Shown: positions 1-30,888, counted from the first letter of the stretch. The stretch is DNA of 64,000 bases from an uncultured Chloroflexia bacterium (GCA_963766735.1 CAVYBU010000007.1:1-64000), one strand, 5' to 3'. The notes: generated by a model from the letters alone, not told the origin. Made by a program: numbers and translations.

Positions 1-198
1 GGGGCGCCAGAAATACGCATGGGACCATCGTCTCGTTTCACCTCCAAGGTTGGCCATAGCCATCGATGGGCCGTTCCGACCAGAATCGCCACACCGTGTG
101 GGGGGACCAACTCCCGATCCCAAGCTCCGGCCGCATATCTAGGTTCGTGCCCACCAGCGCGACCGACCCGTACAGGCGTCCCAGGAAGGGAACATGTC

Positions 199-1653
199 TT
201 GAGGCGCCTGCTTGCTCTTCTCATGGGAACTGCTCTGGTGGTGGCGACGGGCGTCATCCCCGCATCGGCTGCGCGGCCGCCGGCCGCCGCATGCGTCGGC
301 CTCGTCACCAGTACCCTCTCAGTGAACGGCTACCAGCCCGGCTCGCTCGCCAGGTCGACCGAGACCTCGGCCGACTGGATCAGCCGAGCGATCCAGAACG
401 CGTGCCGCGCCGGCACGCCAGCCCCACTGGTCGCAGCCCAGGTCCTCGCCGACCAGCAGGTCGCCGTCAATGACATCGCGACCTTCCTCAGCGTCGGCTT
501 CCAGGAGCCTCCGTTCGGAACGGCTTCCGTTCTCCAGGCGGTCGGGTTCGACGGCAGTGACATCGCGACGGCGCTCCGCGCCGTCTTCGCGTCGACCGAC
601 GGTGCAACGGCCGCCATCCTCGCCGACCTCGGGTTCGACGCGACATCCGTCGCCGGTGCCCTGCTCGACGCCTTCGACTCGGATGCCCCGACGACCGTCG
701 GGCTCCTCGCGCAGCAAGGATTCGCCGTGCCGCAGGTGGCCGCCGCGCTGCGTGACGCACGACAGGCCTCCGCGGCGGAGAGCGGGTTCTGGCTTCTCAC
801 CGCCTTCCGCTTCAGCGACATCCCCGAGGCGCTGGAGGACGCGTACGCGGTCTCCGAGGAGTGGGCGATCGGTGCCTGGGAATCGACCCGGGAGTGGGGC
901 ATCGAGTTCGGGACGAAGTTCGCCGACGAGGTGATGTCGGTGAAGGACGACATCTGCGACGAACTGGTGTTCGAGGAGAAGTCGATGTGCGAGTCCGAGT
1001 TCTGGACCCTCAGGAACGTCTGGGACTGGCAGTGGTTCAATACCAAGGAGTACTACCGCACCTGCTGGGACCCGGAGTATCCCTGGGACATCGACGATGA
1101 AGACCCCTTGTGCGTCGCCGCATCCTATGCGGGGTCGTTCTATCGAGGCATCGGCGTCCCTGCCTACGAGTGGGCCGTTAGGTCATACGACTGGCTCCAG
1201 GACCCCGAACTCGATACGCCGCTGTGGCTGACGAATGCGCTGCACGAGATCGGCTACGGTGCGTCCGAGACCGCCGAGGCCCTCAAGGACGTCTACGAGG
1301 TGAGCGCCGACTGGGTCGTGGGCGCCTACCACACCGTCGGCTACGGTGCGTCCGAGACCGCCGAGGCCCTCAGGGACGCCTACGGGGTGAGCGCCGACTG
1401 GGTCGTGGGCGCCTACCACACCGTCGGCTACGGTGCGTCCGAGACCGCCGAGGCCCTCAGGGACGTCTACGAGGTGAGCGCGACCTGGGTCGCCCAGGCC
1501 TTGAAGGACGTCGGCTACGCGGCGAACGAGGCCGGTGAGGCCCTCAAGGACGCCTACAACTGGACCGAGGCGCAGGTGAACGCATTCATTGACGATCTCT
1601 ACGACATCGGCGACGACATCGGCGACTGGTTCTGCGGCTGGTGGGGCTGCTGA
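199..1653 (+). CDS. Secreted helical-repeat protein (29-aa repeats, Trp/Cys-rich middle)
   Basis: In-frame TTG at 199 after AGGAAGG; signal peptide MRRLLALLMGTALVVATGVIPASA; 29-aa periodicity in both N-terminal (GFDGSDIATALRAVF...) and C-terminal (GYGASETAEALKDVY...) halves. Confidence 0.75.
   Translation: MRRLLALLMGTALVVATGVIPASAARPPAAACVGLVTSTLSVNGYQPGSLARSTETSADWISRAIQNACRAGTPAPLVAAQVLADQQVAVNDIATFLSVGFQEPPFGTASVLQAVGFDGSDIATALRAVFASTDGATAAILADLGFDATSVAGALLDAFDSDAPTTVGLLAQQGFAVPQVAAALRDARQASAAESGFWLLTAFRFSDIPEALEDAYAVSEEWAIGAWESTREWGIEFGTKFADEVMSVKDDICDELVFEEKSMCESEFWTLRNVWDWQWFNTKEYYRTCWDPEYPWDIDDEDPLCVAASYAGSFYRGIGVPAYEWAVRSYDWLQDPELDTPLWLTNALHEIGYGASETAEALKDVYEVSADWVVGAYHTVGYGASETAEALRDAYGVSADWVVGAYHTVGYGASETAEALRDVYEVSATWVAQALKDVGYAANEAGEALKDAYNWTEAQVNAFIDDLYDIGDDIGDWFCGWWGC
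1251..1560 (+). repeat. 87-bp coding tandem repeat, about 3.5 copies
   Basis: CGGCTACGGTGCGTCCGAGACCGCCGAGGCCCTCA starts at 1251, 1338 and 1425; degenerate copy at 1512. Confidence 0.95.
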
Positions 1654-1751
1654 TCCCCGCCCGACGCTCGACCATCCACGTCTCGGCACCGTCCCACAAC
1701 GCCGTCGAGCCACGCTGACGCCCCTCGCTGGTGGCCTGCGTCTCCCCGCCC

Positions 1752-1792
1752 CGCGCCTGACCGATCGGCGGGGCCAGCGGGCGACCGGGGGT
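1752..1792. repeat. GC-rich bulged hairpin, family 1 copy A
   Basis: CGCGCCTGACCGATCGGC(A/G)GGGCCAGCGGGCGACCGGGGG, recurring at 2463, 2842, 3740 (truncated) and 6771 (degenerate). Confidence 0.85.
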
Positions 1793-1818
1793 GCAACAAT
1801 CCGCCGTCTGGCGCGTCA
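1793..1818 (+). promoter_or_regulatory. Putative ECF-sigma promoter GCAAC-N16-CGTCA
   Basis: Same AAC-N16-CGT spacing at 2883, 3867 and 8145; -10 begins 15 nt before the riboswitch-like leader. Confidence 0.6.
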
Positions 1819-1828
1819 CTGGTCTGTA

Positions 1829-1903
1829 GCGGGAGGCCGAGACACGCGGTCCATCACTGCCGGCCGCCGGGTCCGTGACGAGCCACTGGCCAGACCGACC
1901 CGC
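1829..1903 (+). ncRNA. c-di-GMP-II-like riboswitch (GAG-type variant), copy 1
   Basis: P1 GCGGG/CCCGC, P2 GGC/GCC, P3 stem, loop GGCCGCC, 3' end GACCGACCC; 20 nt upstream of CDS 1924. Confidence 0.7.
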
Positions 1904-1923
1904 GCTGCCGTTGGGAGGAAGCC

Positions 1924-2451
1924 ATGCGCAACCTTGCGACCCTGAACCTCGAGGGTGCTCGGCGGCTTCCGCGTGTTGCTGCCGGCCTGGCGGTAATCGT
2001 GCTGCTGGCCGGTTGTGGCGGGAGCGGCCACGTCATCCACGTGAACCTCGCCGTGCCGCTCGCCTCGACCGCGGAGTTCGGTTCAACCTGCGACGCAGCC
2101 GCCCTGGGCGCGACGGGGCCGATAGCCGCGACGATCCCCGGGTCGTCCCTGCAGCTCTTCGACTTCGACCGGTGGGACGTGCCCCCCCCTGATCCAGGCG
2201 AGACGAGGAGGCCGCTCACGGTCGTGGGCGAGCAGACCGTCCCAGCTACCGGCACCGTCGTGCAGGCCATCAGCGACGACCCGGGGTTCCCAGCGGCCTG
2301 TCGTTTCACGTTCGACGTGCCGACGACCGCCGACGTCAAGACCGCATACGCGGTTTCCGTCGGTACGGTCTACCTGCCGATCCCGCTGATGCAGCGCGAC
2401 GATCTGGAGGCCGCGGGCTGGGTCGCCAACATCGGCGTCAATCCCCAGTAG
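1924..2451 (+). CDS. Lipoprotein of unknown function; paralog of the C-terminal domain of 3923..4966
   Basis: RBS GGGAGG; lipobox LLAG-C; shared domain GSGHVIHVNLAVPLAS...GWVANIGVNP. Confidence 0.8.
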   Translation: MRNLATLNLEGARRLPRVAAGLAVIVLLAGCGGSGHVIHVNLAVPLASTAEFGSTCDAAALGATGPIAATIPGSSLQLFDFDRWDVPPPDPGETRRPLTVVGEQTVPATGTVVQAISDDPGFPAACRFTFDVPTTADVKTAYAVSVGTVYLPIPLMQRDDLEAAGWVANIGVNPQ

Positions 2452-2462
2452 GCGTCCGCACT

Positions 2463-2503
2463 GCGCCTGACCGATCGGCAGGACCAGCGGGCGACCGGGG
2501 GCG
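2463..2503. repeat. GC-rich bulged hairpin, family 1 copy B
   Basis: GCGCCTGACCGATCGGCAGGACCAGCGGGCGACCGGGGGCG, 12 nt after the stop of 1924..2451. Confidence 0.85.
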
Positions 2504-2516
2504 CATCATGTCCGGC

Positions 2517-2665
2517 ATGAGCGACGACCCCGCCGCCCTGCGCAACCGCGACCTCCCGCTCGCCGCCTGGCATTCCTGGCCGGCGCGGAGGAGGACGCGC
2601 GGGAGACGCGCGACCGGGGACTGACCCTCGAGGAGGTGCGCGCGGCGATGGGTCACCGAGATGAT
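2517..2665 (+). pseudogene. Frameshifted remnant of a small hypothetical gene
   Basis: MSDDPAALRNRDLPLA, then in a shifted frame RLAFLAGAEEDARETRDRGLTLEEVRAAM; coding-like. Confidence 0.35.
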
Positions 2666-2671
2666 GCGGGA

Positions 2672-2767
2672 ATGTCTAGGCGGAGCCGCCTTGTGGTGCT
2701 CCTGCTGCTATTTGCAGCGATCGTCGCCTTCACCGTGTTCGCAAGCTGGTGGATCGGGACGCCGTAG
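2672..2767 (+). CDS. 31-aa single-TM small protein
   Basis: MSRRSRLVVLLLLFAAIVAFTVFASWWIGTP*: basic N-terminus followed by a hydrophobic helix. Confidence 0.4.
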   Translation: MSRRSRLVVLLLLFAAIVAFTVFASWWIGTP

Positions 2768-2827
2768 GCCGGGCGGCGGGCATGGCCGCGATGTGACGGC
2801 TCCGGGATCGTCGAGTAGTCCGGACCA

Positions 2828-2883
2828 CGCCCCCTGCCCACCGCGCCTGACCGATCGGCAGGGCCAGCGGGCGACCGGGGGCG
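2828..2883. repeat. GC-rich bulged hairpin, family 1 copy C
   Basis: CGCCCCC...CGCGCCTGACCGATCGGCAGGGCCAGCGGGCGACCGGGGGCG with terminal CGCCCCC/GGGGGCG arms. Confidence 0.85.
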
Positions 2884-2908
2884 TAACAATCCGCCGTCCT
2901 CGGCGTTA
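2883..2908 (+). promoter_or_regulatory. Putative ECF-sigma promoter GTAAC-N16-CGTTA
   Basis: Typical ECF -35/-10 spacing; -10 begins 15 nt before riboswitch copy 2. Confidence 0.6.
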
Positions 2909-2918
2909 CTGGTCTGCA

Positions 2919-2993
2919 GCGGGAGGCTGAGACACGCGGTCCATCACCCACGGCCGCCGGGACCGCGCCGAGCCACTGGCGAGACCGACCCGC
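2919..2993 (+). ncRNA. c-di-GMP-II-like riboswitch (GAG-type variant), copy 2
   Basis: GCGGGAGGCTGAGACACGCGGTCC-ATCACCCAC-GGCCGCC-GGGACCGCG-CCGAGCCACT-GGCGAGACCGACCCGC; P1-P3 plus CGCC/GGCG pseudoknot. Confidence 0.75.
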
Positions 2994-3020
2994 AGGGGGC
3001 GTCCCTGGGAGGCACGTCAT

Positions 3021-3716
3021 ATGCGCAAGAGCTTCAGTGCTCTCGTCGCTGCCATAGCCGGGATGGCGCTGCTGGCCGGCTGTGCCGGTGGCACGCCGGC
3101 GTCCGACCCGGCAACAGCGTCATCGGCCAACATTCCTTCCGCCACCGCGTCGCCCACATCGACGCCATCGGCGCCGAGTCCGCCGGCAGGCATGGGGTCC
3201 GCCTCGATGACCCTACCGGCAAACTGGACCGAGATCGAGATGACCGAGGCCGCGCTGAGGAACTACCTCGAGGCCGCTGGCGACGCCAACCCGGAGTTCG
3301 TTGCCGTGCTCGAAGGCCTGATCGCCAGCGCCGGTTACGACCAGTACGCGTTCTGGGCGATGGGCTACAGGGACGGCGTCTATATCGGCAATCTGAACAT
3401 CACCCAGTCCCCATCGGAGGGCCTGTCGCTCGACGGGGCTGAGCCGATGCTCCTGGCACAGATGAACCAGATTCCCGGCTACTCGGATGTCAACTCGAGC
3501 CGAGCGGACCTGCCAATCGGCGAAGCCCTGCTGATCACGGCCGTGGTGACAACGAGCAGCGGCCAGGCCGACAGCGATATCGTGCAAGCCCAGCGCGGCT
3601 ACTTTCTCATCCAGAACGACGTGTTCTACGGCGTGGTGTTCTCGTGCGCCCAAGGCAATGACACGTGTCTCACTGATGCCGAGGCGATGGTCAAGACTCT
3701 CGTCATCGCGCCGTAG
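3021..3716 (+). CDS. Lipoprotein of unknown function
   Basis: RBS GGGAGG; lipobox LLAG-C; Pro/Ser/Thr linker then a globular domain with a Cys pair. Confidence 0.85.
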   Translation: MRKSFSALVAAIAGMALLAGCAGGTPASDPATASSANIPSATASPTSTPSAPSPPAGMGSASMTLPANWTEIEMTEAALRNYLEAAGDANPEFVAVLEGLIASAGYDQYAFWAMGYRDGVYIGNLNITQSPSEGLSLDGAEPMLLAQMNQIPGYSDVNSSRADLPIGEALLITAVVTTSSGQADSDIVQAQRGYFLIQNDVFYGVVFSCAQGNDTCLTDAEAMVKTLVIAP

Positions 3717-3763
3717 CCTCGACGCACCAGTCTCTGCTCCGCGCCTGACCGATCGGCAGGGCC

Positions 3764-3849
3764 AGCGGCCTGACCTACTCCGGCACCCCGCCCTCGCGGA
3801 TCAGCCGGAGGCAGCGCGCCAGCTCGCGGATGACCTCCAGCTCGGTCGG
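3764..3849. repeat. About 86-bp direct repeat, second copy 5053-5138; 3' end of a small minus-strand gene
   Basis: AGCGGCCTGACCTACTCCGGCACC...AGCTCGGTCGG; minus strand encodes APTELEVIRELARCLRLIREG.VPE*. Confidence 0.9.
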
Positions 3850-3866
3850 CGCGAGGGCCGCGGAAT

Positions 3867-3892
3867 CGAACAGGGAGTGAGCCCGAGCGTCC
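3867..3892 (+). promoter_or_regulatory. Putative ECF-sigma promoter CGAAC-N16-CGTCC
   Basis: Same spacing as the other array promoters, about 30 nt upstream of ATG 3923. Confidence 0.5.
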
Positions 3893-3922
3893 CTGCTGGT
3901 GCACCGCACCGAGGTACCTGAG

Positions 3923-4966
3923 ATGAGCTCCCTGTTCTCGCGCTTCGCAGCAGCGATCACGGTCGGCCTCCTGGCCGCGGCCTGCTCGGCCGCCGCGACC
4001 CCGAGCCCCACGTCGACTCCTGTCGCATCCCCGCCAGCTCCCGCCACGATCCTGGTGGATCCGACGCCCGTGGCGACCGAGGTGCCCCCTGGGACGACCT
4101 CGCCGCTGGAGCGCCCGGGCGCGAGCGGTGCGGCGAAGCTCAGCGGCGCGATCTTCGGGCTGTTCTCGATCCGGGGTGACGAGTGCCCGACCCCGGAGCA
4201 TCCCGACGGATTGCTGTCGGGGATGGGGGAGAACGGCGAGACGGCGCTCGAGGTGACCATTCGGCCCGACGCGACCGCGCGCTTCGTGTTCTACCCGACA
4301 CCCGGCGACGAGAGCGACTCCATTGCGGCTACCGTCCCGGCATCGCCCCAGGTCGCCGGCGACGGGTGGGCAGTCGCCCTCCAGGCATCTCCCGCGGGGA
4401 TCGGGCCGGTCACCCTCGACGTCGAGTGGACCTGCGATGCCGCCACGGCCACGGCGTCACCCGGATCCCTCGGGAGCGGCCACGTCATCCACGTGAACCT
4501 CGCCGTGCCGCTCGCCTCGGCTGCGGCTCTCGGTTCAACCTGCGACGCAACAGCCCTGCGGGCGACGGGGCCAGTGGCGGCGACGATCCCCGGGTCGCGA
4601 CTGTCGTTCTTCGACTTCGACCAGCCGCTCGACATGTTCGACCCGGCGGACGAGCCGAACGAAACGCCGCCAGAAGGCAGCAGCCCTCGGGCAACCGTGG
4701 TGCCGGAGGAGCCCAACGAGACAAAGGTGCCGTTCATTCCCCTCGGCGAGCAGACGGTGCCGGAAACCGGCACGCTCGTGAAGCCCATCAGCGACGATCC
4801 GGGCTTCCCAGCGGCGTGTCTGTTCAGCTTCGACGTGTCGACGACCGCCGACGTCAAGAAGGCGTACGTGTTCTCGGTCGGGTCCGTCTACTTCCCGGTC
4901 CCGCTCATCCTGCGTTCCGATCTGGAGGCCGCGGGCTGGGTTGCCAACATCGGCGTCAATCCCTAG
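3923..4966 (+). CDS. Two-domain lipoprotein of unknown function
   Basis: RBS GAGG; lipobox LAAA-C; C-terminal domain paralogous to 1924..2451. Confidence 0.8.
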   Translation: MSSLFSRFAAAITVGLLAAACSAAATPSPTSTPVASPPAPATILVDPTPVATEVPPGTTSPLERPGASGAAKLSGAIFGLFSIRGDECPTPEHPDGLLSGMGENGETALEVTIRPDATARFVFYPTPGDESDSIAATVPASPQVAGDGWAVALQASPAGIGPVTLDVEWTCDAATATASPGSLGSGHVIHVNLAVPLASAAALGSTCDATALRATGPVAATIPGSRLSFFDFDQPLDMFDPADEPNETPPEGSSPRATVVPEEPNETKVPFIPLGEQTVPETGTLVKPISDDPGFPAACLFSFDVSTTADVKKAYVFSVGSVYFPVPLILRSDLEAAGWVANIGVNP

Positions 4967-5063
4967 CAGCCCAAGCCTGCCCTTCGCGACGTCCTTGGCG
5001 TCACCGGCGATGCGCCCGGCCGATCGAGTTGAGCCGGAGAGGTGTTGGGTCTAGCGGCCTGAC

Positions 5064-5311
5064 CTACTCCGGCACCAGCCCCTCGCGGATCAGCCGGAGG
5101 CAGCGCGCCAGCTCGCGGATGACCTCTAGCTCGGTCGGAGCAACTGCGGTCCACTCCCGCGAACGGACACCGGCCCGAGCCCGCTCGCGGGGGTCAAAGG
5201 CGTACTGCTCCCACACCTTGCGCCCCTGGTCGTAGGACGGCCGCCCGACGAACCAGCGGGAGGCGTGGCGTCGTCGAGGTCGCTCCAAGCGTCCTCGAGG
5301 TCGGCGGGCAT
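5064..5311 (-). pseudogene. Small hypothetical gene with a frameshift near 5258
   Basis: MPADLEDAWSDLDDATP joins, in another frame, WFVGRPSYDQGRKVWEQYAFDP...APTELEVIRELARCLRLIREGLVPE*. Confidence 0.6.
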
Positions 5312-5535
5312 GGCCGCGATGGTACGGCTCCGCGGTCGCCGCCGAGCGCGGTCGCCGGCCAGGTCGCGCGGCAGGGACGGGGGCTACTTCAGATCGGCGA
5401 CGGCCTGACCCTACTTCGTCGCGTCTGCCTCGGGGAGATCGCCGTTGATCTGCACAAGGACGAGCACCGGGATCGCGCAACAAGTCCGACATTCGCGCCG
5501 AACCAGACGGCCTTCTCGAGCATCTCTTGTAGGTA

Positions 5536-5610
5536 GCGGGAGGCTTTGACGCGCGGCCCATCACCCACGGTCGCCGGGACCGCGCCGAGCCACTGGCGAG
5601 ACCGCCCCGC
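5536..5610 (+). ncRNA. c-di-GMP-II-like riboswitch (GAG-type variant), copy 3
   Basis: GCGGGAGGCTTTGACGCGCGGCCC...GGTCGCC-GGGACCGCG-CCGAGCCACTGGCGAGACCGCCCCGC; pseudoknot TCGCC/GGCGA. Confidence 0.75.
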
Positions 5611-5658
5611 GACGAGATCGGTGGCACGTGAGCGGCCGCCGATATAGGAGGCGGGCCG

Positions 5659-6123
5659 ATGAACCGGCGGTTTGTCGCAGTGGCACTTGGGAGCGTCCTG
5701 GCGCTCGGACTCGTCGCGCCGGTCGCCGCGAAGCCGACGATGATCCCGATCTCGGGTGACGACACGGGTGCAGTCGTGCTTGAAGAGGGCAGGACGTGGG
5801 TCTCCGGCCCGCTGACGCATGTCCGCGGCTGGTCGGCGGAGTACACCACCACCGGCGGGGAGCTTGTGAACGGGACGAGCATCATCGTCGCTAATTGGAA
5901 CATCGACGCAACGGGCGACGGGACCATGTGGGGCACCACGGAGCTGACGCTCACGTCCGGGACCGGCGGATGGCACGAGACCTGGGTCGCGAAGTTCGAG
6001 GGCGGGTCCTGGGCAGGCTGGGGCGTCGGCCGCGGGTGGGGCGATCTGGACGGCATGAGGATCCGGCTAGACGTGTTCGCAACGGGTCCATTCTCGGATC
6101 ACTTCGAGGGGTACGTCTTCTAG
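5659..6123 (+). CDS. Secreted Gly/Trp/Thr-rich beta protein of unknown function
   Basis: RBS AGGAGG; signal peptide MNRRFVAVALGSVLALGLVAPVAA. Confidence 0.85.
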   Translation: MNRRFVAVALGSVLALGLVAPVAAKPTMIPISGDDTGAVVLEEGRTWVSGPLTHVRGWSAEYTTTGGELVNGTSIIVANWNIDATGDGTMWGTTELTLTSGTGGWHETWVAKFEGGSWAGWGVGRGWGDLDGMRIRLDVFATGPFSDHFEGYVF

Positions 6124-6180
6124 GTCACGAGCAGACGGAATTTCGACGATCCGGGCGGGCGGGGGAGCGGGGGCATCCCT

Positions 6181-6239
6181 GGAGGCTCTACGCGGGGTCC
6201 GTGCTCCGGGACCGTGCGGAGCCACTGGCGAAACCGAGC
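6181..6239 (+). ncRNA. Degenerate riboswitch-like copy lacking the pseudoknot loop, with no downstream sense gene
   Basis: GGAGGCTCTACGCGGGGTCC..GGGACCGTGCGGAGCCACTGGCGAAACCG. Confidence 0.45.
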
Positions 6240-6628
6240 TAGCCCGAGGCGTCCTCAACGTCCATGCGGTCGGCGGCATCGCGGGCGGCATCGCTCGGCG
6301 TGCCGATGGAGCCCGGGTCGGCGAGCTCGTCGCGACGGATGCTGCTGCCGTACGGCTCGGCCAGCGCGGCCATTGCCGCCATGCTCCCGGCGACATTCGA
6401 CACGGGGCCAACACCTGACGGGACCGGCAATGGGATGTGGAGCGGCCGGTCCGCGTAGGCCTGCTGACCCGGATCCACGATCGTGACGCCGGCGATGGCG
6501 ACGCCATCGATCGATTCGCGCTGGGCAAGAGAGCCACCGCAGGCGGGACAGTGCGACGTTGCGGACGACACGGGCGTCGAGCACCACGGACATGCGCGCT
6601 TCTCGCCTGTCACATTTGCGTTGGTCAC
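6239..6628 (-). CDS. Zinc-ribbon domain protein
   Basis: CPWC...CPAC motif. Confidence 0.7.
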   Translation of the reverse strand: MTNANVTGEKRACPWCSTPVSSATSHCPACGGSLAQRESIDGVAIAGVTIVDPGQQAYADRPLHIPLPVPSGVGPVSNVAGSMAAMAALAEPYGSSIRRDELADPGSIGTPSDAARDAADRMDVEDASG

Positions 6629-6868
6629 TGGTGGCTTGCCTCCGGCTGGTGCGAAAGGACAGTAGCAGCCGGGTCCAGCCCCGCCGTCGGCTGCAGCACC
6701 TGTTGGGGGGCCGCGGTCTCGCTCGAACCGTGATCGCGAGGGACGTGGCCCCCGAATCGCGGTCCGATCGGCGCCTGACCGACCGGCACGGCCGTCGGGC
6801 GACCGCGGGCCGTTTGGGCCCTATGCCCCTTGGGATTGAGCGCGGCTGCGCCAGACTGTGCGACATAC

Positions 6869-6942
6869 GCGGGAGGCTCTGACACGCGGCCCACCACCCA
6901 CGGCCGCCGGGACCACGCCGAGCCACTGGCGAGACCGACCGC
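6869..6942 (+). ncRNA. c-di-GMP-II-like riboswitch (GAG-type variant), copy 4
   Basis: Same motif ending GAGCCACTGGCGAGACCGACC; upstream of 6982. Confidence 0.7.
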
Positions 6943-6981
6943 TCGTGGGGCTTCCGCCCTATCCGATGAGAGGAGAGAGCG

Positions 6982-7209
6982 ATGAGCGAGCACTTCGACA
7001 GGTTCATGGAAGGCTGGGACAAGGGCAACGTGGAGCTGCTCCTGAGTGCCTGTGCCGAGGACTTCGTGTTCGACGACGCCATTGACGGGCGCTTCACGAA
7101 AGCCAAGTTCCCGGCCTACTTCGAGTCTCTGGCGAAGGTAGGACGCGACGGCGTCCACTCGCAGAGGGTGACCTACTACGCACGTGAGCCTCATATCGCT
7201 TCAAGGTGA
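6982..7209 (+). CDS. SnoaL/NTF2-like protein, short and possibly internally deleted
   Basis: RBS GAGGAG; FMEGWDKGNVELLLSACAEDFVFDD is a typical NTF2-like N-terminus, but the ORF is only 75 aa. Confidence 0.55.
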   Translation: MSEHFDRFMEGWDKGNVELLLSACAEDFVFDDAIDGRFTKAKFPAYFESLAKVGRDGVHSQRVTYYAREPHIASR

Positions 7210-7327
7210 CCAGAGCGGAGACGTCTGCCAGGAGTGGGCGACCGAGGCCGATCGAGCCCTGTTCGGGTAGCCCTTGCATCGCCCCCGGCTCGGCGCGGAG
7301 CGCCCGACCCCGAGGCAGAATGCCCGA

Positions 7328-8053
7328 ATGAAGCGACTCCTGGCGATCGCCCTCCTCGTTTCGGCCTGTGGCGGCACAGTCGAGCCGACGGCGACGGTGA
7401 TGCCTGCCGCAACCCTGGCCCCGATCGTCGCGCCGGTCCCGACGTCGGCCGGTCCCTCGGTGATGCCCGGTATCGTCGGGGACGGGTCGCTCCACGATGC
7501 GGTCGGCGACCTCGTGCACGGCCCCGGCAACCCGGTCAAGACACCTGCATACCTCGACATCCGCGATCTCGAGGTGGTCGCAGACGGCACGACCCTCCGG
7601 CTGACCCTGACCCTCCTGGACGAGCTGCCTCCGCCGGCGCTGGCCGCCGAACGCCTGAACTACAACATCTCGCTGCTCACGGACGCCGATGTCGACCCCG
7701 GGCTCGACGGTCATGGCGGCGGCCACAGTTACACGGTCAGCCTCTCCAGGCTGACCCCGTCGGGAAGCTACCAGCCGACGTTGTGGGACCTACCGGCAGA
7801 TGCCGACACGAGGGCGATCGCCTACAAGGGACACGAGTTCCCCGGGACGGCAGTCGTGGCGGGCGACACGATTGTGTGGACGGTCAGCTTGGCCGCGCTC
7901 GGGAACCCCCACCTGATCCAGCTCAGCGTCACCTCTGTCGCAACCGTAACCTCTGGTTCGGCCGACGTGGTCGGCAGCACCTCCGATCATCTCCCGGAAA
8001 ACGGCCTCGGCGACTGGCTAACCCTCGGCGACCGGCTCGACCTCGGGCACTGA
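7328..8053 (+). CDS. Lipoprotein of unknown function
   Basis: MKRLLAIALLVSA-C lipobox; Pro-rich linker. Confidence 0.8.
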   Translation: MKRLLAIALLVSACGGTVEPTATVMPAATLAPIVAPVPTSAGPSVMPGIVGDGSLHDAVGDLVHGPGNPVKTPAYLDIRDLEVVADGTTLRLTLTLLDELPPPALAAERLNYNISLLTDADVDPGLDGHGGGHSYTVSLSRLTPSGSYQPTLWDLPADADTRAIAYKGHEFPGTAVVAGDTIVWTVSLAALGNPHLIQLSVTSVATVTSGSADVVGSTSDHLPENGLGDWLTLGDRLDLGH

Positions 8054-8089
8054 TCGGACCCCCGGCCCGTGTTGGCGGACGCGTTCGAT

Positions 8090-8145
8090 CCCGGCTCCGC
8101 GCGGAGCGTCCGACCCGCCAGGTCAGCGCCCGGCGACCGGAGGCG
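8090..8145. repeat. GC-rich hairpin, family 2 (other copies 7277-7310 partial and 8787-8850)
   Basis: CCCGGCT.CGCGCGGAGCG.CCGACCCGCCAGGTCAGCGCCCGGCGACCGG.GGCG. Confidence 0.85.
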
Positions 8146-8170
8146 TAACAACGGGCCGCCGTCGGCGTCA
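8145..8170 (+). promoter_or_regulatory. Putative ECF-sigma promoter GTAAC-N16-CGTCA
   Basis: Same motif; -10 begins 14 nt before riboswitch copy 5. Confidence 0.6.
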
Positions 8171-8179
8171 AGTGTCAGA

Positions 8180-8253
8180 GCGGGAGGCTGTGACGCGCGG
8201 TCCGTACCCACGGCCACCGGGATCGCGCCGAGCCACCGGTGAGACCGACCCGC
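8180..8253 (+). ncRNA. c-di-GMP-II-like riboswitch (GAG-type variant), copy 5
   Basis: Pseudoknot has a compensatory change, CACC/GGTG versus CGCC/GGCG in other copies. Confidence 0.75.
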
Positions 8254-8272
8254 TGGAAGTGGAGATCACGCC

Positions 8273-8779
8273 ATGCGACGCATTCTGGTGGTTGCTGCAC
8301 TTGTGGGGAGCCTGGCACTCCCGGCGGGTGCGTTGGCGCAGGAGCCAGATTCGATGTGGGTCGAGCTCGGCTCCGCCAGTCTCGTTGGGAAGTCCGTTGT
8401 GACCCTCGACATCACATTTGCCTGCCAGCCCGCCGACGACCTCGGCGAGAATTGGCAGGTGTATTGGTGGGACGAAGAAGGGATGCAGGGCACCCAGATT
8501 GACGTTCAGGTTCGGCAGGCTGTCGGTGGCCACCTCCAGGCCTCCGCTGATGCGACGTGGTACTTCGTGGACCAGGCGGACGAGCTCTGCAACGGTCAAC
8601 CGCAGACCGTCCAGATGACCATGGCGTCTGAAGGCCCGCCCTTCAAGCACGGCTGGGCAGCGATCAACATCAACGCGGCAGCGCCTTGGTATGCCCGGAA
8701 CACGGTGACCTGGGAGACCTACCCAGGTTCCGACCAAGCGGCATCGACGGGCTGGATGGCGGTCAAGATCGGCAAGTAG
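8273..8779 (+). CDS. Secreted protein of unknown function
   Basis: RBS GGAG; signal peptide MRRILVVAALVGSLALPAGALA; two Cys. Confidence 0.85.
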   Translation: MRRILVVAALVGSLALPAGALAQEPDSMWVELGSASLVGKSVVTLDITFACQPADDLGENWQVYWWDEEGMQGTQIDVQVRQAVGGHLQASADATWYFVDQADELCNGQPQTVQMTMASEGPPFKHGWAAININAAAPWYARNTVTWETYPGSDQAASTGWMAVKIGK

Positions 8780-8786
8780 CAGGGAT

Positions 8787-8850
8787 CATCGCCCCCGGCT
8801 ACGCGCGGAGCGCCCGACCCGCCAGGTCAGCGCCCGGCGACCGGGGGCGA
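8787..8850. repeat. Family 2 hairpin with 10-bp terminal inverted repeat
   Basis: TCGCCCCCGG (8789) ... CCGGGGGCGA (8841-8850), just after the stop at 8779. Confidence 0.85.
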
Positions 8851-9170
8851 CGTGTGTCCAGCTTGACAAGGGCGCAAGGGTGACCGGAGATCCCGATCCC
8901 CGGTCTGCAGGAGAATGCGGCGCCGCCGGTGGGGGAGAACTCCAGCGGCGCCGCGGGGAAGTGCTTGCGAAACGGGATGTCGTCTCTCCTGAGCACGTCC
9001 GCTTGCCAGAGGTTTCAGCCGCAACGCATTTCGAGGCCCCTGGGGCTCCACCGCGACCTCTCGTGCCGACGCCCCGGCAGCGCGGCGCGCGCGGCGACGA
9101 GCTCTCCCGTCTGGGCGCCGACCTTGACGACGTGGTGGACGCCCTGATGGCGGGTGGCCGGCGGCCGCGC

Positions 9171-27575: not shown

Positions 27576-28444
27576 CCACGAGCATCAACGACGCCGTCCA
27601 CTGGCGGTCGGACCTCGGCGGTGGGACCACGGTCGCCCTGGTCCAGGCCGGCACGTTCCGCACCGACGCCGGCGCGATCTTCGGACCCGTGCCATGGATC
27701 CTGTGGCGGGCCTGGGCCGAGGGCGAGCTGGACGAGAATCGGCGGATCCTCCAGGCGCTCAACTGCTTGCTGGTGGAGACGCCGGCCGGGCGCGTCCTGA
27801 TCGAGACCGGGATCGGGGAGCGGCTGGACGAGAAGAACACCGCGATGCGCGGCTACCTGGGCCTGCCAATCGTCCCGGCGTTGCGAGAGGCGGGCTTCGA
27901 CCCCGGCACCGTGGACCTGGTGGCGATGAGCCACCTGCACTTCGATCACGCCGGAGGGTTGCTCCTGGCGGATGGAACCCGGGCGTTCCCGCGGGCGCGG
28001 ATCGTGGCCCAGCGGTCCGAGTGGGAGATCGCGCTGGACGGCAACAGCCGTCTCGTGGCGTCCTACGACCAGCCGGAGCTGCGCCTGGTCGCGGACTGGG
28101 GGGCCGAAGGATGGACGGAGGGTGACCGTGAGCTCCTGCCCGGCGTGTCTGTCGTCCGGACGGGAGGGCACTCCGCGGGTCACCAGGCGATCGTGGTGAA
28201 GGGGTCCGGGCCAGGCGCGCGGACGCTCGCGTTCTTCGGGGACCTGTGCATGCGCCCGTGGGCGGCAAACCCGCGCTGGGTGACAGCGTTCGACGACTTC
28301 CCGCTGGACAGCGTCGCGGTCAAGGGCGAGCTGTTCCGGCGCGCGGTCGAGGACGACTGGATCGTGGCGATGTCGCACGAGGCGCGATCACCGGTCGGGA
28401 AGCTCATCCCGGATCGGGACCGCTTCCGGTTCGAGGCGCTGTAG
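27572..28444 (+). CDS. MBL-fold metallo-hydrolase (YtnP-like), apparent CTG start
   Basis: [28 protein letters not shown]; CTG overlaps the dcd stop. Confidence 0.85.
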
Positions 28445-30812: not shown

Positions 30813-30888
30813 GCCCCCGTAGCTCAGTGGATAGAGCGCAGCCGTCCTAAGGCTGGCGTCGGCGGTTCGAATCCGTCCGGGGGCGCCA
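30813..30888 (+). tRNA. tRNA-Arg (anticodon CCT)
   Basis: Cloverleaf: GCCCCCG/CGGGGGC acceptor, GCTC/GAGC D-arm, CAGCC-GTCCTAA-GGCTG, TTCGAAT loop, encoded CCA. Confidence 0.96.

What the first reader, a model, noticed from the sequence alone, without database searches (positions are those of the whole stretch)
1829..8253. Five c-di-GMP-II-like riboswitches with an altered ligand pocket, each leading a different gene
Seen: a 74-75 nt motif at 1829, 2919, 5536, 6869 and 8180, each 20-50 nt before a start codon. It pairs as GCGGG/CCCGC, GGC(T)/(A)GCC and a P3 stem, with a loop-to-tail pseudoknot that shows a compensatory change (CGCC/GGCG to CACC/GGTG). Known: this order matches c-di-GMP-II aptamers (GGAA...GGGCAC...GAG...GUGCAACCGACC). 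Here the AA bulge that contacts the ligand reads GA, apparently the c-di-GMP-II-GAG variant type. Four of the five downstream genes are unrelated exported proteins of unknown function. Inference: a compact cyclic-dinucleotide-controlled surface-protein regulon whose ligand may not be c-di-GMP.
Basis: partly seen in the sequence, partly recalled or inferred. Interest (0 to 1): 0.85.

Follow-up and report, generated by a model that had tools for sequence, protein, structure and literature searches.

The report
Cluster of known c-di-GMP-II-GAG riboswitches
Five copies of an already catalogued riboswitch-type RNA, a variant of the class II cyclic-di-GMP sensor for which I could find no verified ligand, each sit just ahead of a different gene, mostly for exported proteins, so the finding is real but belongs to a known family.

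Summary
All five motifs are full-length matches to Rfam RF03169 (c-di-GMP-II-GAG), at 55-77 bits against a cut-off of 40. They score below the cut-off of the parent c-di-GMP-II model, or not at all. Each lies 19-48 nt before a Shine-Dalgarno sequence and ATG.

The five are part of about 15 distinct copies in this 3.6-Mb genome. The genome is probably a Limnocylindria-like Chloroflexota MAG. Most copies precede lipoprotein, secreted or membrane-anchored protein genes.

P1, P2, P3 and the pseudoknot are supported on 42 copies.

The same genome keeps a canonical c-di-GMP-II aptamer before an HD-GYP gene, with a terminator, and this arrangement recurs across the genus.

No leader holds a terminator, so control is most likely at translation. 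The direction is unresolved, with a lean to ON.

The ligand is untested: c-di-GMP about 0.6, another dinucleotide about 0.3.

This is a known family with new members. The scan has already noted this family in at least 17 other genomes.

The parts
1823..1909 (+). c-di-GMP-II-GAG aptamer, copy 1 (core 1829-1903). The most deviant copy: one U-U mismatch in P3 and one C-C mismatch in the pseudoknot.
   Evidence: RF03169, 55.4 bits. No RF01786 match at E <= 0.001.
1924..2451 (+). Gene 1: 175-aa putative lipoprotein (lipobox LLAGC), no Pfam family. SD GGGAGG lies 6 nt before the ATG.
   Evidence: (GC3 0.85). The C-terminal 167 aa are 63% identical to the product of 3923-4966. The first 34 aa are 88% identical to the gene after the copy at C7:235073.
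2913..2999 (+). c-di-GMP-II-GAG aptamer, copy 2 (core 2919-2993).
   Evidence: RF03169, 73.9 bits. RF01786 gives 37.8 bits, below its cut-off. Metagenome contigs match only between 2919 and 2992/2993 (loose ends).
3021..3716 (+). Gene 2: 231-aa putative lipoprotein (LLAGC), no Pfam family.
   Evidence: (GC3 0.82).
5530..5616 (+). c-di-GMP-II-GAG aptamer, copy 3 (core 5536-5610).
   Evidence: RF03169, 76.5 bits. RF01786 gives 40.4 bits.
5659..6123 (+). Gene 3: 154-aa protein with a signal-peptide-like N-terminus (..VAPVAA-KP), no Pfam family.
   Evidence: (GC3 0.85). The nearest Atlas clusters are 'hypothetical protein', commonest in Chloroflexota.
6181..6237 (+). Decayed sixth aptamer copy (relic). 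It keeps the P3 3' strand, the GAGCCACUGGCGA segment and a GCGUCC linker, but leads no gene. It abuts the 3' end of a minus-strand ORF (6239-6628).
   Evidence: nhmmer E 1.1e-4. Repeat family D6. Not reported by Rfam at E <= 1.
6863..6948 (+). c-di-GMP-II-GAG aptamer, copy 4 (core 6869-6942). One C is missing from the P1 3' strand and P3 has one mismatch.
   Evidence: RF03169, 58.7 bits. No RF01786 match at E <= 0.001.
6982..7209 (+). Gene 4: 75-aa ORF matching only the first half of a SnoaL_2 (NTF2-like) domain. No signal peptide. Probably truncated.
   Evidence: PF12680 E 3.9e-5, profile positions 2-49 of 102, below the curated cut-off.
8174..8259 (+). c-di-GMP-II-GAG aptamer, copy 5 (core 8180-8253). 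It carries the compensatory pseudoknot change.
   Evidence: RF03169, 69.2 bits. RF01786 gives 43.1 bits. The pair at columns 46-71 is AU.
8273..8779 (+). Gene 5: 168-aa protein with a signal-peptide-like N-terminus (..AGALA-QE), no Pfam family.
   Evidence: (GC3 0.77). The nearest Atlas clusters are 'hypothetical' or 'putative secreted protein'.
1746..1798 (+). Intergenic hairpin-forming repeat (core CCTGACCGATCGGCAGG followed by GCGACCGGGGG). Further copies lie at 2456-2508, 2836-2888, 3734-3786 and 6764-6816. Copies sit just after stop codons and, in three cases, 83-105 nt before an aptamer. Its role (terminator, operator or promoter region) is not established.
   Evidence: the repeat finder family D5. 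11 places in the genome, all in gene orientation.
8083..8145 (+). Second intergenic repeat with the palindrome GCTCCGCGCGGAGC. Related copies lie at 7277-7310 and 8787-8849, each just after a stop codon. This copy precedes aptamer 5.
   Evidence: the repeat finder families D10 and D11.

Best explanation
The five elements are cis-acting riboswitch aptamers of the catalogued family c-di-GMP-II-GAG (Rfam RF03169). Each sits in the 5' leader of its own single gene.

Shown here:
- The RNA has the class II fold: a 5-bp P1 (GCGGG/CCCGC), a 3-bp P2 (GGC/GCC), a 7-8-bp P3, and a 6-bp pseudoknot between the P3 loop and the 3' joining strand.
- The pocket differs from canonical class II at the A69 equivalent, which is G. 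C68 becomes A, and the first P2 pair is G-C.
- The five belong to a genome-wide set of about 15 leaders, mostly before genes for exported proteins.

Inferred:
- A cyclic dinucleotide binds at the three-helix junction and locks P1 and the pseudoknot. It is most likely c-di-GMP, made by the genome's roughly 10 intact GGDEF cyclases.
- The gap to the start codon is only 19-48 nt and holds no terminator, so the output is most likely translation initiation.
- In many copies a conserved GCGUCCC lies directly before the SD. It can pair with the P3 3' strand or with the P1/P2 5' strand. Without ligand it would invade the aptamer and draw the adjacent SD against a helix. With ligand the aptamer closes and the SD is free.
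- This gives an ON switch that raises surface and exported proteins when the signal is high.

My odds: RF03169 membership and action in cis, about 0.9. Translational output, about 0.7. ON rather than OFF, about 0.6. Ligand is c-di-GMP, about 0.6.
For: Family: five full-length RF03169 hits at 55-77 bits against a cut-off of 40. They score lower on, or are missed by, RF01786.

Structure on 42 copies (15 own, 27 from 16 same-genus genomes): 80.5% of cells are paired, against 36-43% when the partners are slid. 20 of 28 pairs change on both sides. 0 of 500 shuffles reach the observed values.

Position and orientation: 12 of 15 distinct own copies have an SD, a start and a GC3-rich ORF within about 66 nt on the sense side. 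0 of 15 have one on the antisense side. 254 of 3000 random positions pass the same test.

No terminator-like site lies in any leader.

Signalling context in this genome:
- 16 GGDEF matches, 10 of them with an intact GG[D/E]EF motif.
- 2 EAL domains.
- An HD-GYP-type gene behind a canonical class II aptamer.
- 2 class I aptamers.

Across relatives, GGDEF was found in 24 of 24 same-genus genomes and 0 of 16 in the sister family. GAG copies were found in 18 of 24 and 0 of 16.

The regulon resembles c-di-GMP regulons. By eye, 11 of 15 products are lipoproteins, secreted or membrane-anchored. In Clostridioides difficile, class II riboswitches are ON switches before adhesin and pilus genes (PMC11477304, passages read).

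Expression platform: GCGUCCC occurs next to the SD in 6 own and 6 relatives' leaders. Its best duplex partner lies inside the aptamer in 12 of 12 cases, at -11.6 to -17.8 kcal/mol.
Against: No ligand was tested, and I found no report of one for this variant.

The nucleotide that recognises one guanine of c-di-GMP is changed. The genus keeps the canonical A69 form separately at one orthologous locus. Both facts argue for a functional difference.

The thermodynamic model of SD accessibility is inconclusive. Enforcing the aptamer raises P(SD unpaired) by 0.1 or more in 10 of 27 leaders, lowers it in 5 of 27, and changes it by less than 0.1 in 12 of 27.

Three of the five window leaders (1823, 6863, 8174) lack the GCGUCCC element; copy 5530 has only a partial match.

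Copies 1 and 4 carry helix defects, and copy 4 leads a truncated gene.

Support for the pseudoknot from covariation is a single double-sided change.

The copies are about 90% alike, so part of the conservation is recent common descent.
Confidence: 0.6

Rival explanations
1. Same RNA, same cis-acting mechanism, but the natural ligand is not c-di-GMP. Candidates are another cyclic or linear dinucleotide, such as c-di-AMP, 3',3'-cGAMP or pGpG. The A69-to-G change would retune the upper base site of the pocket.
For: A69 reads G-alpha of c-di-GMP through three hydrogen bonds (PMC13715770, whole text read). Its equivalent is G in 5 of 5 window copies, and that column is at least 90% conserved over 42 copies.

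The genus keeps one canonical A69 aptamer before an HD-GYP gene, apart from the many GAG copies. All 6 relatives' loci checked read GUGCAACCGACC, and 5 of 6 show the orthologous gene.

The class II scaffold is easily retuned. An engineered one-nucleotide variant binds 3',3'- and 2',3'-cGAMP, and the class II aptamer is described as less selective.

The genome has a DAC c-di-AMP synthase, but no ydaO-type c-di-AMP riboswitch was found (genome 93.85% complete).
Against: No cGAMP synthase candidate was found. There are 0 SMODS matches. All 10 intact GGDEF domains keep Asp in GHxxGD. The rule that a Ser at this position marks the cGAMP-making 'Hypr' type is recalled, not from a call.

The regulon of surface and exported proteins fits c-di-GMP better than the cell-wall and osmolyte regulon known for c-di-AMP riboswitches (recalled).

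GAG copies were found only in genomes that also hold GGDEF genes. That comparison rests on two lineages only.
Confidence: 0.3
2. The copies are relics or a dispersed repeat spread by local duplication, and no longer sense a ligand. The similarity to riboswitches would be inherited, not functional.
For: The region is a patchwork of segmental duplications. Repeat D1 is 153 nt, and D4 and D7 are gene pieces.

The copies are 89-93% identical to one another.

Decayed copies exist at 6181-6237, C2:352803 and C9:25298. C2:126406 has no clear gene after it.

Copy 4 has a deletion in P1 and leads a 75-aa gene fragment.
Against: The sense-strand position before an SD and start codon holds for 12 of 15 copies, against 0 of 15 on the antisense side and 8.5% of random positions.

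Both-sided changes keep P1 and P3 paired across 42 copies from 17 genomes.

The joining strand and pocket positions are nearly invariant, while the flanks diverge completely.

In metagenome contigs the similarity begins and ends exactly at the aptamer borders.
Confidence: 0.04
3. The structured leader is bound by a protein or acts as a ligand-independent element, for example in mRNA stability or as a thermometer, rather than as a small-molecule sensor.
For: No ligand has been verified for this variant in anything I could read. Two kinds of hairpin-forming or palindromic repeats (D5 and D10) accompany the leaders and could be protein sites.
Against: The architecture is the same, position by position, as the crystallised c-di-GMP-II aptamer. 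The floor A, the ceiling A, the intercalating A and the G73 equivalent are all kept.
Confidence: 0.05

Closest known systems
Rfam RF03169, c-di-GMP-II-GAG riboswitch aptamer (clan CL00127)
   Same: Full-length matches over the curated cut-off for all five copies. Same helices, same joining-strand sequence (GAGCCA-UGGCG-AGACCG), same place in 5' leaders.
   Different: Nothing defining differs. The outer six P1 pairs of the model are only about 40-50% paired in this lineage, so the real P1 is about 5 bp. The host is probably Chloroflexota (Limnocylindria-like), where this genus carries 1-13 matches per genome and this genome the most. By my recollection the family comes from the structure-guided variant search of Weinberg et al., PNAS 2017. 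That paper is not held here, so I could not check what it says about ligands.
Canonical c-di-GMP-II riboswitch (Rfam RF01786; crystal structure PDB 3Q3Z)
   Same: Identical architecture, column for column: P1, unpaired A, P2, 6 nt, P3, 3 nt, P2', 14-nt joining strand, P1'. The pseudoknot runs from the P3 loop to the joining strand. The equivalents of A13, A61, A70 and G73 are kept.
   Different: The A69 equivalent is G and the C68 equivalent is A. The pseudoknot is GGCG/CGCC, shifted by one position, instead of GUGC/GCAC. Scores are below the RF01786 cut-off. In this genome the canonical copy uses a terminator hairpin with a U tract that overlaps ACCGACC and controls an HD-GYP gene. The GAG copies have no terminator and control genes for exported proteins.
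Class II c-di-GMP riboswitches of Clostridioides difficile before CD2831, CD3246, the type IV pilus operon and cmrRST
   Same: Several copies per genome, each ahead of surface or adhesion genes. They switch expression ON at high c-di-GMP (PMC11477304, passages).
   Different: Those are canonical class II aptamers that act on transcription termination. These are the GAG variant, with no terminator and an unverified ligand.
c-AMP-GMP (3',3'-cGAMP) riboswitches, which are pocket variants of c-di-GMP-I (GEMM-I)
   Same: A precedent in which a single pocket substitution in a c-di-GMP aptamer changes the dinucleotide sensed, with the variants long hidden among hits to the parent class (PMC5473149, passages).
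   Different: A different fold (class I). The change of ligand there was shown by experiment. Here it is only a possibility.

Membership tests
c-di-GMP-II-GAG (RF03169) | Covariance-model score at or above the curated gathering score (40 bits), over the full model. | tested here: met
   55.4, 73.9, 76.5, 58.7 and 69.2 bits, model positions 1-86 of 86.
c-di-GMP-II-GAG (RF03169) | Scores better than the sibling models of the clan. | tested here: met
   cmscan kept RF03169 as the best of the clan. RF01786 gives 37.8-43.1 bits for three copies and nothing at E <= 0.001 for two.
c-di-GMP-II-GAG (RF03169) | P1-P2-P3 three-helix junction and loop-to-tail pseudoknot, maintained by compensatory change. 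| tested here: met
   42 copies: 80.5% paired against 36-43% slid. 20 of 28 pairs have both-sided changes. 0 of 500 shuffles reach this. The pseudoknot is 89.7% paired but has only one both-sided change.
c-di-GMP-II-GAG (RF03169) | G-A-G at the pocket positions that are A69, A70 and G73 in canonical class II. That the name refers to these three positions is my inference. | tested here: met
   All five window copies read ..A-G-A-C-C-G.. where the RF01786 consensus reads ..C-A-A-C-C-G... Numbering comes from PMC13715770.
c-di-GMP-II-GAG (RF03169) | Sense orientation in the 5' leader of a gene. | tested here: met
   5 of 5 in the window. 12 of 15 own copies against 0 of 15 antisense and 8.5% of random positions.
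c-di-GMP-II-GAG (RF03169) | Ligand-dependent folding and gene control. | not testable with these tools
   Needs in-line probing, ITC or reporters. No report was found in the held library.
Canonical c-di-GMP-II (RF01786) | Score at or above the gathering score (53.5 bits). | tested here: not met
   At most 43.1 bits for the window copies. Only C6:189655 and its duplicate C10:4657 pass, at 59.5 bits.
Canonical c-di-GMP-II (RF01786) | Adenine at position 69, which reads G-alpha by its sugar edge. | tested here: not met
   G in 5 of 5 window copies.
Dispersed repeat or mobile element | Random orientation and position relative to genes. | tested here: not met
   (see above). The looser ORF-only test was not selective: 80% of random positions pass.

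The most novel reading that the evidence does not exclude
The GAG aptamers sense a dinucleotide other than c-di-GMP, or read c-di-GMP at a markedly different threshold. In that case this Chloroflexota genus would run two separate class II channels side by side. One is a single canonical aptamer giving c-di-GMP feedback on an HD-GYP phosphodiesterase. The other is an expanding GAG regulon of exported proteins. The GAG regulon appears to spread by copying a cassette made of the leader and a signal peptide onto new genes.
Probability: 0.3. Interest if true: 0.75.

Novelty: new member of a known kind. Interest (0 to 1): 0.3.

Why it matters
Taken alone this is routine annotation, since the RNA family is already in Rfam.

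Its use is as material for an open question, namely what the GAG variant binds. This genome offers many near-identical natural GAG aptamers. It also holds, as an internal control, a canonical class II aptamer and two class I aptamers, together with a defined set of cyclases (GGDEF and DAC; no CD-NTase found).

The regulon also marks about a dozen uncharacterised exported proteins of an uncultured soil and sediment lineage as probably controlled by a second messenger.

Tried and rejected
(1) Direction of the switch. I computed SD accessibility with and without the aptamer enforced for 27 leaders. The result was mixed: 10 up, 5 down, 12 unchanged. Plain MFE folds differ from copy to copy. Neither settles ON against OFF.

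(2) Promoters. The sigma-70 consensus scan found 0 sites in 1600-8900. The transcription starts are unknown.

(3) Expression. There was one search for sequencing runs and one lay, and only contigs were available. An RNA-library run (X20) has contigs with 0-2 differences on 5680-5997 and 1700-1817. The tool itself warns that this does not show transcription. No start, end or strand could be read.

(4) Function of genes 3 and 5. There is no Pfam match, and the Atlas neighbours are 'hypothetical'.

(5) An ORF-only orientation test was not selective, as 80% of random positions pass. I replaced it with a test requiring SD, start and ORF.

(6) Literature. The source paper (PMC5358364 and its DOI), Smith et al. 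2011 (PMC3093532) and Bose et al. 2016 (PMC5397252) are not held. The supplement of PMC5737381 is too large to read. These may contain ligand tests of the GAG variant that I could not see.

(7) PMC13715770 looked like a ligand report for a 'c-di-GMP-II variant'. It concerns an engineered Bacillus halodurans deletion mutant, not the natural GAG class. I used it only for pocket numbering.

(8) Reading the intergenic repeat D5 as a promoter. I found no acceptable -35/-10 pair by eye or by scan, and left it open.

Full report
OBSERVATION

A covariance-model scan of the whole 64-kb window against Rfam 15 reports five + strand, full-length matches to RF03169 (c-di-GMP-II-GAG riboswitch aptamer). They lie at 1823-1909, 2913-2999, 5530-5616, 6863-6948 and 8174-8259. 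Scores are 55.4-76.5 bits against a gathering score of 40, with E-values from 3e-8 to 1e-13. The only other match over a cut-off is a tRNA at 30813-30885. A permissive scan at E <= 1 adds no further aptamer.

The pseudoknot pairs CGCCGG in the P3 loop with CUGGCG in the 3' joining strand. The copy at 8174 has CACCGG with CCGGUG. A sixth, decayed copy lies at 6181-6237 (nhmmer E 1e-4). It is followed by no gene.

WHICH FAMILY

The parent model RF01786 (c-di-GMP-II, cut-off 53.5 bits) gives only 37.8-43.1 bits for three window copies and no match at E <= 0.001 for the other two.

The two Rfam consensus lines have the same architecture, column for column. The 14-nt strand between P2' and P1' reads A-G-U-g-G-U-G-C-A-A-C-C-G-g in RF01786 and A-g-U-G-G-C-G-A-G-A-C-C-G-a in RF03169.

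With a constant offset of one, the model positions match the numbering of PDB 3Q3Z as described in PMC13715770 (whole text read):
- The A14-U60 pair stacks on the ligand backbone.
- A61 is the ceiling of the pocket.
- A69 reads G-alpha with three hydrogen bonds from its sugar edge.
- A70 intercalates.
- G73 reads G-beta.
- A13 is the floor.

The variant therefore keeps the equivalents of A13, A61, A70 and G73. It replaces A69 by G and C68 by A, and it has G-C for the first P2 pair. That 'GAG' names positions 69, 70 and 73 is my inference.

STRUCTURE

I aligned 42 copies: 15 distinct copies of this genome and 27 from 16 same-genus genomes. I left out one near-identical duplicate (C24:1398), one half copy (L046:221-305), three weak own hits and the two canonical copies.

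On this alignment 80.5% of cells form standard pairs, against 36-43% when the 3' partners are slid by 1-3 columns. 20 of 28 pairs show changes on both sides, and 0 of 500 shuffles reach the observed values.

There are three caveats:
- The sequences are close kin.
- The six outer P1 pairs of the model are only about 40-50% paired, so P1 is effectively 5 bp here.
- The pseudoknot is 89.7% paired, but it has a single both-sided change (the 8174 copy) plus one G-U.

GENOME-WIDE PICTURE

The window is contig 7, bases 1-64000, of a 3.62-Mb, 35-contig, 70% G+C assembly that is 93.85% complete with 4.22% contamination. It holds 21 RF03169 matches at E <= 0.001, and 18 of them are over the cut-off. Two of those 18 are really canonical class II copies and one is a contig duplicate. 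That leaves about 15 distinct GAG copies on 6 contigs, plus partial copies.

Genes after the GAG copies:
- Five have products with an L-A-G-C type lipobox.
- Four have products with a signal-peptide-like N-terminus.
- Two have products with an N-terminal membrane anchor.
- One encodes an ECF sigma factor.
- Two have products without an export signal.
- One copy has no clear gene after it.

The export signals were judged by eye, not by a predictor. Pfam finds Septum_form, ATC_hydrolase, SnoaL_2 (three, weak), Beta_helix/NosD and alpha/beta-hydrolase. It finds nothing for four of the five window genes. The five window proteins are mutually unrelated by BLASTP at E <= 1e-3.

A first orientation test that used ORFs alone was not selective: 80% of random positions passed. 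I then required an SD, a start codon and a GC3-rich ORF within about 66 nt. On that test 12 of 15 copies pass on the sense side and 0 of 15 on the antisense side, against 254 of 3000 random positions.

TWO CLASS II TYPES SIDE BY SIDE

The canonical copy (C6:189655, duplicated on C10) is followed by a hairpin with a U tract. The 5' arm of that hairpin is the aptamer's ACCGACC. After it comes a gene with HD_5 (HD-GYP type) and MASE9 domains.

In relatives, RF01786 passes its cut-off in 15 of 41 genomes searched, typically once per genome. All 6 loci I inspected keep GUGCAACCGACC and the same hairpin. 5 of 6 show the orthologous membrane protein, and the sixth locus ends at a contig edge.

GAG copies vary from 0 to 13 per same-genus genome. 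They were found in 18 of 24 same-genus genomes and in 0 of 16 genomes of a sister family with genomes of about 1.1 Mb. GGDEF was found in 24 of 24 and 0 of 16 of the same genomes. These are only two lineages, so this is not a statistical association.

The genome also holds two class I aptamers, 2 EAL domains, one DAC, no SMODS-type CD-NTase and no ydaO-type c-di-AMP riboswitch. All 10 GGDEF domains with an intact GG[D/E]EF motif keep Asp in GHxxGD. The rule that cGAMP-making 'Hypr' GGDEFs carry Ser there is recalled.

MECHANISM

No terminator-like site lies in any leader, and the gaps are 19-48 nt. I therefore infer control of translation initiation.

A motif GCGUCCC directly precedes the SD in 6 own and 6 relatives' leaders. 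Its best predicted partner lies inside the aptamer in all 12. In 9 of 12 it is the P3 3' strand and pseudoknot region, and in 3 of 12 the P1/P2 5' strand, at -11.6 to -17.8 kcal/mol. This suggests a switching strand that competes with aptamer folding, which would make ligand binding free the SD (ON).

The support is limited. Three of the five window leaders lack the motif. The accessibility model is mixed: 10 of 27 up, 5 of 27 down and 12 of 27 unchanged. The ON reading leans on analogy with the canonical copy here and with the C. difficile class II switches before adhesin and pilus genes (PMC11477304, passages).

LIGAND

I found no report of a verified ligand for the GAG variant. Seven full-text searches were run. 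The four papers that name the variant only list the Rfam model. The likely source paper and two structural papers are not held, and one supplement is unreadable.

c-di-GMP remains the most likely ligand, at about 0.6. The cyclases are abundant, the regulon is of the surface-protein kind, and the rest of the pocket is kept.

A different dinucleotide, or a different threshold, stands at about 0.3. It is favoured by the changed G-alpha reader and by the conserved coexistence with a canonical copy.

SURROUNDINGS

The locus is a patchwork of duplications.
- Leader 1 and its upstream 80 nt are 89% identical to leader 2 (repeat D1).
- Gene 1 shares 63% identity over 167 aa with the C-terminus of the gene at 3923-4966.
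- Gene 1 also shares its leader and first 34 codons (88%) with a SnoaL-domain lipoprotein gene at C7:235073. A cassette of leader plus signal peptide seems to be copied onto different mature domains.
- Two hairpin-forming intergenic repeats (D5 and D10/D11) sit just after stop codons and before several aptamers. Their role is open.
- In public metagenome contigs, similarity to other organisms begins at 2919 and ends at 2992/2993. The same is seen at 5610/5611 and at 8180. These are the aptamer borders.

ORGANISM

69 of the 80 listed carry labels of Chloroflexota (Chloroflexia, Limnocylindria or Limnocylindrales, Anaerolineaceae). 11 carry other labels, mostly Actinomycetota. The Atlas neighbours of gene 3 are also commonest in Chloroflexota. 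The host is thus probably a Limnocylindria-like Chloroflexota MAG. This is inference, not identification.

VERDICT

This scan has recorded the family 24 times in at least 17 other genomes. I rate the novelty as a new member of a known kind. Interest is modest at 0.3. It rests on the unresolved ligand and on the useful natural contrast between GAG and canonical copies in one genome.

Noticed in passing
G000 contig C6:189655-189738 (+), duplicate at C10:4657-4740 (outside the window): The single canonical c-di-GMP-II aptamer (RF01786, 59.5 bits). It is followed by a terminator-like hairpin with a U tract that overlaps the aptamer's 3' strand, then by a 454-aa HD_5/MASE9 (HD-GYP type) gene. The arrangement is conserved in relatives.
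   Followed up: yes
G000 contig C25:26750-26824 and 28223-28297 (+): Two c-di-GMP-I (RF01051) aptamers at 42.9 and 62.3 bits, 1.4 kb apart. I did not look at their genes.
   Followed up: no
window 1746-1798, 2456-2508, 2836-2888, 3734-3786, 6764-6816; also C7:291032-291948 and C2:353808-359696: An intergenic repeat of about 50 nt with the imperfect palindrome CCTGACCGATCGGCAGG. It occurs at 11 places in the genome, always in gene orientation, mostly just after stop codons in arrays of small genes. It could be a terminator, an operator or a REP-like element.
   Followed up: partly
window 7277-7310, 8083-8145, 8787-8849: A second intergenic repeat with the palindrome GCTCCGCGCGGAGC, each copy just after a stop codon. 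The copy at 8787 repeats the region upstream of aptamer 5 but has no aptamer behind it.
   Followed up: no
window 1924-2028 and C7:235058-234957: The leader and the first 34 codons (lipoprotein signal peptide) are shared at 88% identity between two genes whose mature parts are unrelated. This suggests that a cassette of riboswitch plus signal peptide is copied onto new genes.
   Followed up: partly
window 19-1653 (+): A 544-aa ORF with three 87-nt tandem repeats (1250-1557, 83-97% identical), giving 29-aa repeats, and a Cys/Trp-rich C-terminus. It has only a weak, sub-threshold Pfam hit. It starts near the contig end, so its own leader cannot be seen.
   Followed up: no
window 3759-3852 and 5048-5141: A 94-nt direct repeat (93% identical) that covers the 3' ends of two minus-strand ORFs ending ..ELEVIRELARCLRLIREG(G/L)VPE. 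These look like duplicated gene fragments between the riboswitch units.
   Followed up: no
G000 C30:254465-255934 and C3:389328-387487: In two GAG-led genes the SD-linked ATG and signal peptide are in a different frame from the long GC3-rich ORF. This may be a frameshift, either real or an assembly error.
   Followed up: no
window 30813-30885 (+): A tRNA gene (RF00005, 60 bits). By eye the anticodon loop reads CCU (Arg). ARAGORN was not run.
   Followed up: no
loci L066, L067, L068, L054 (relatives): In four same-genus copies the intercalating-A equivalent is U or C (..GAGUCCG.., ..GAGCCCG..). The GAG and GCG subtypes therefore grade into each other within one genus. Three of the four (L066-L068) precede 416-430-aa proteins with similar N-termini; L054 precedes an unrelated 371-aa protein.
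   Followed up: no
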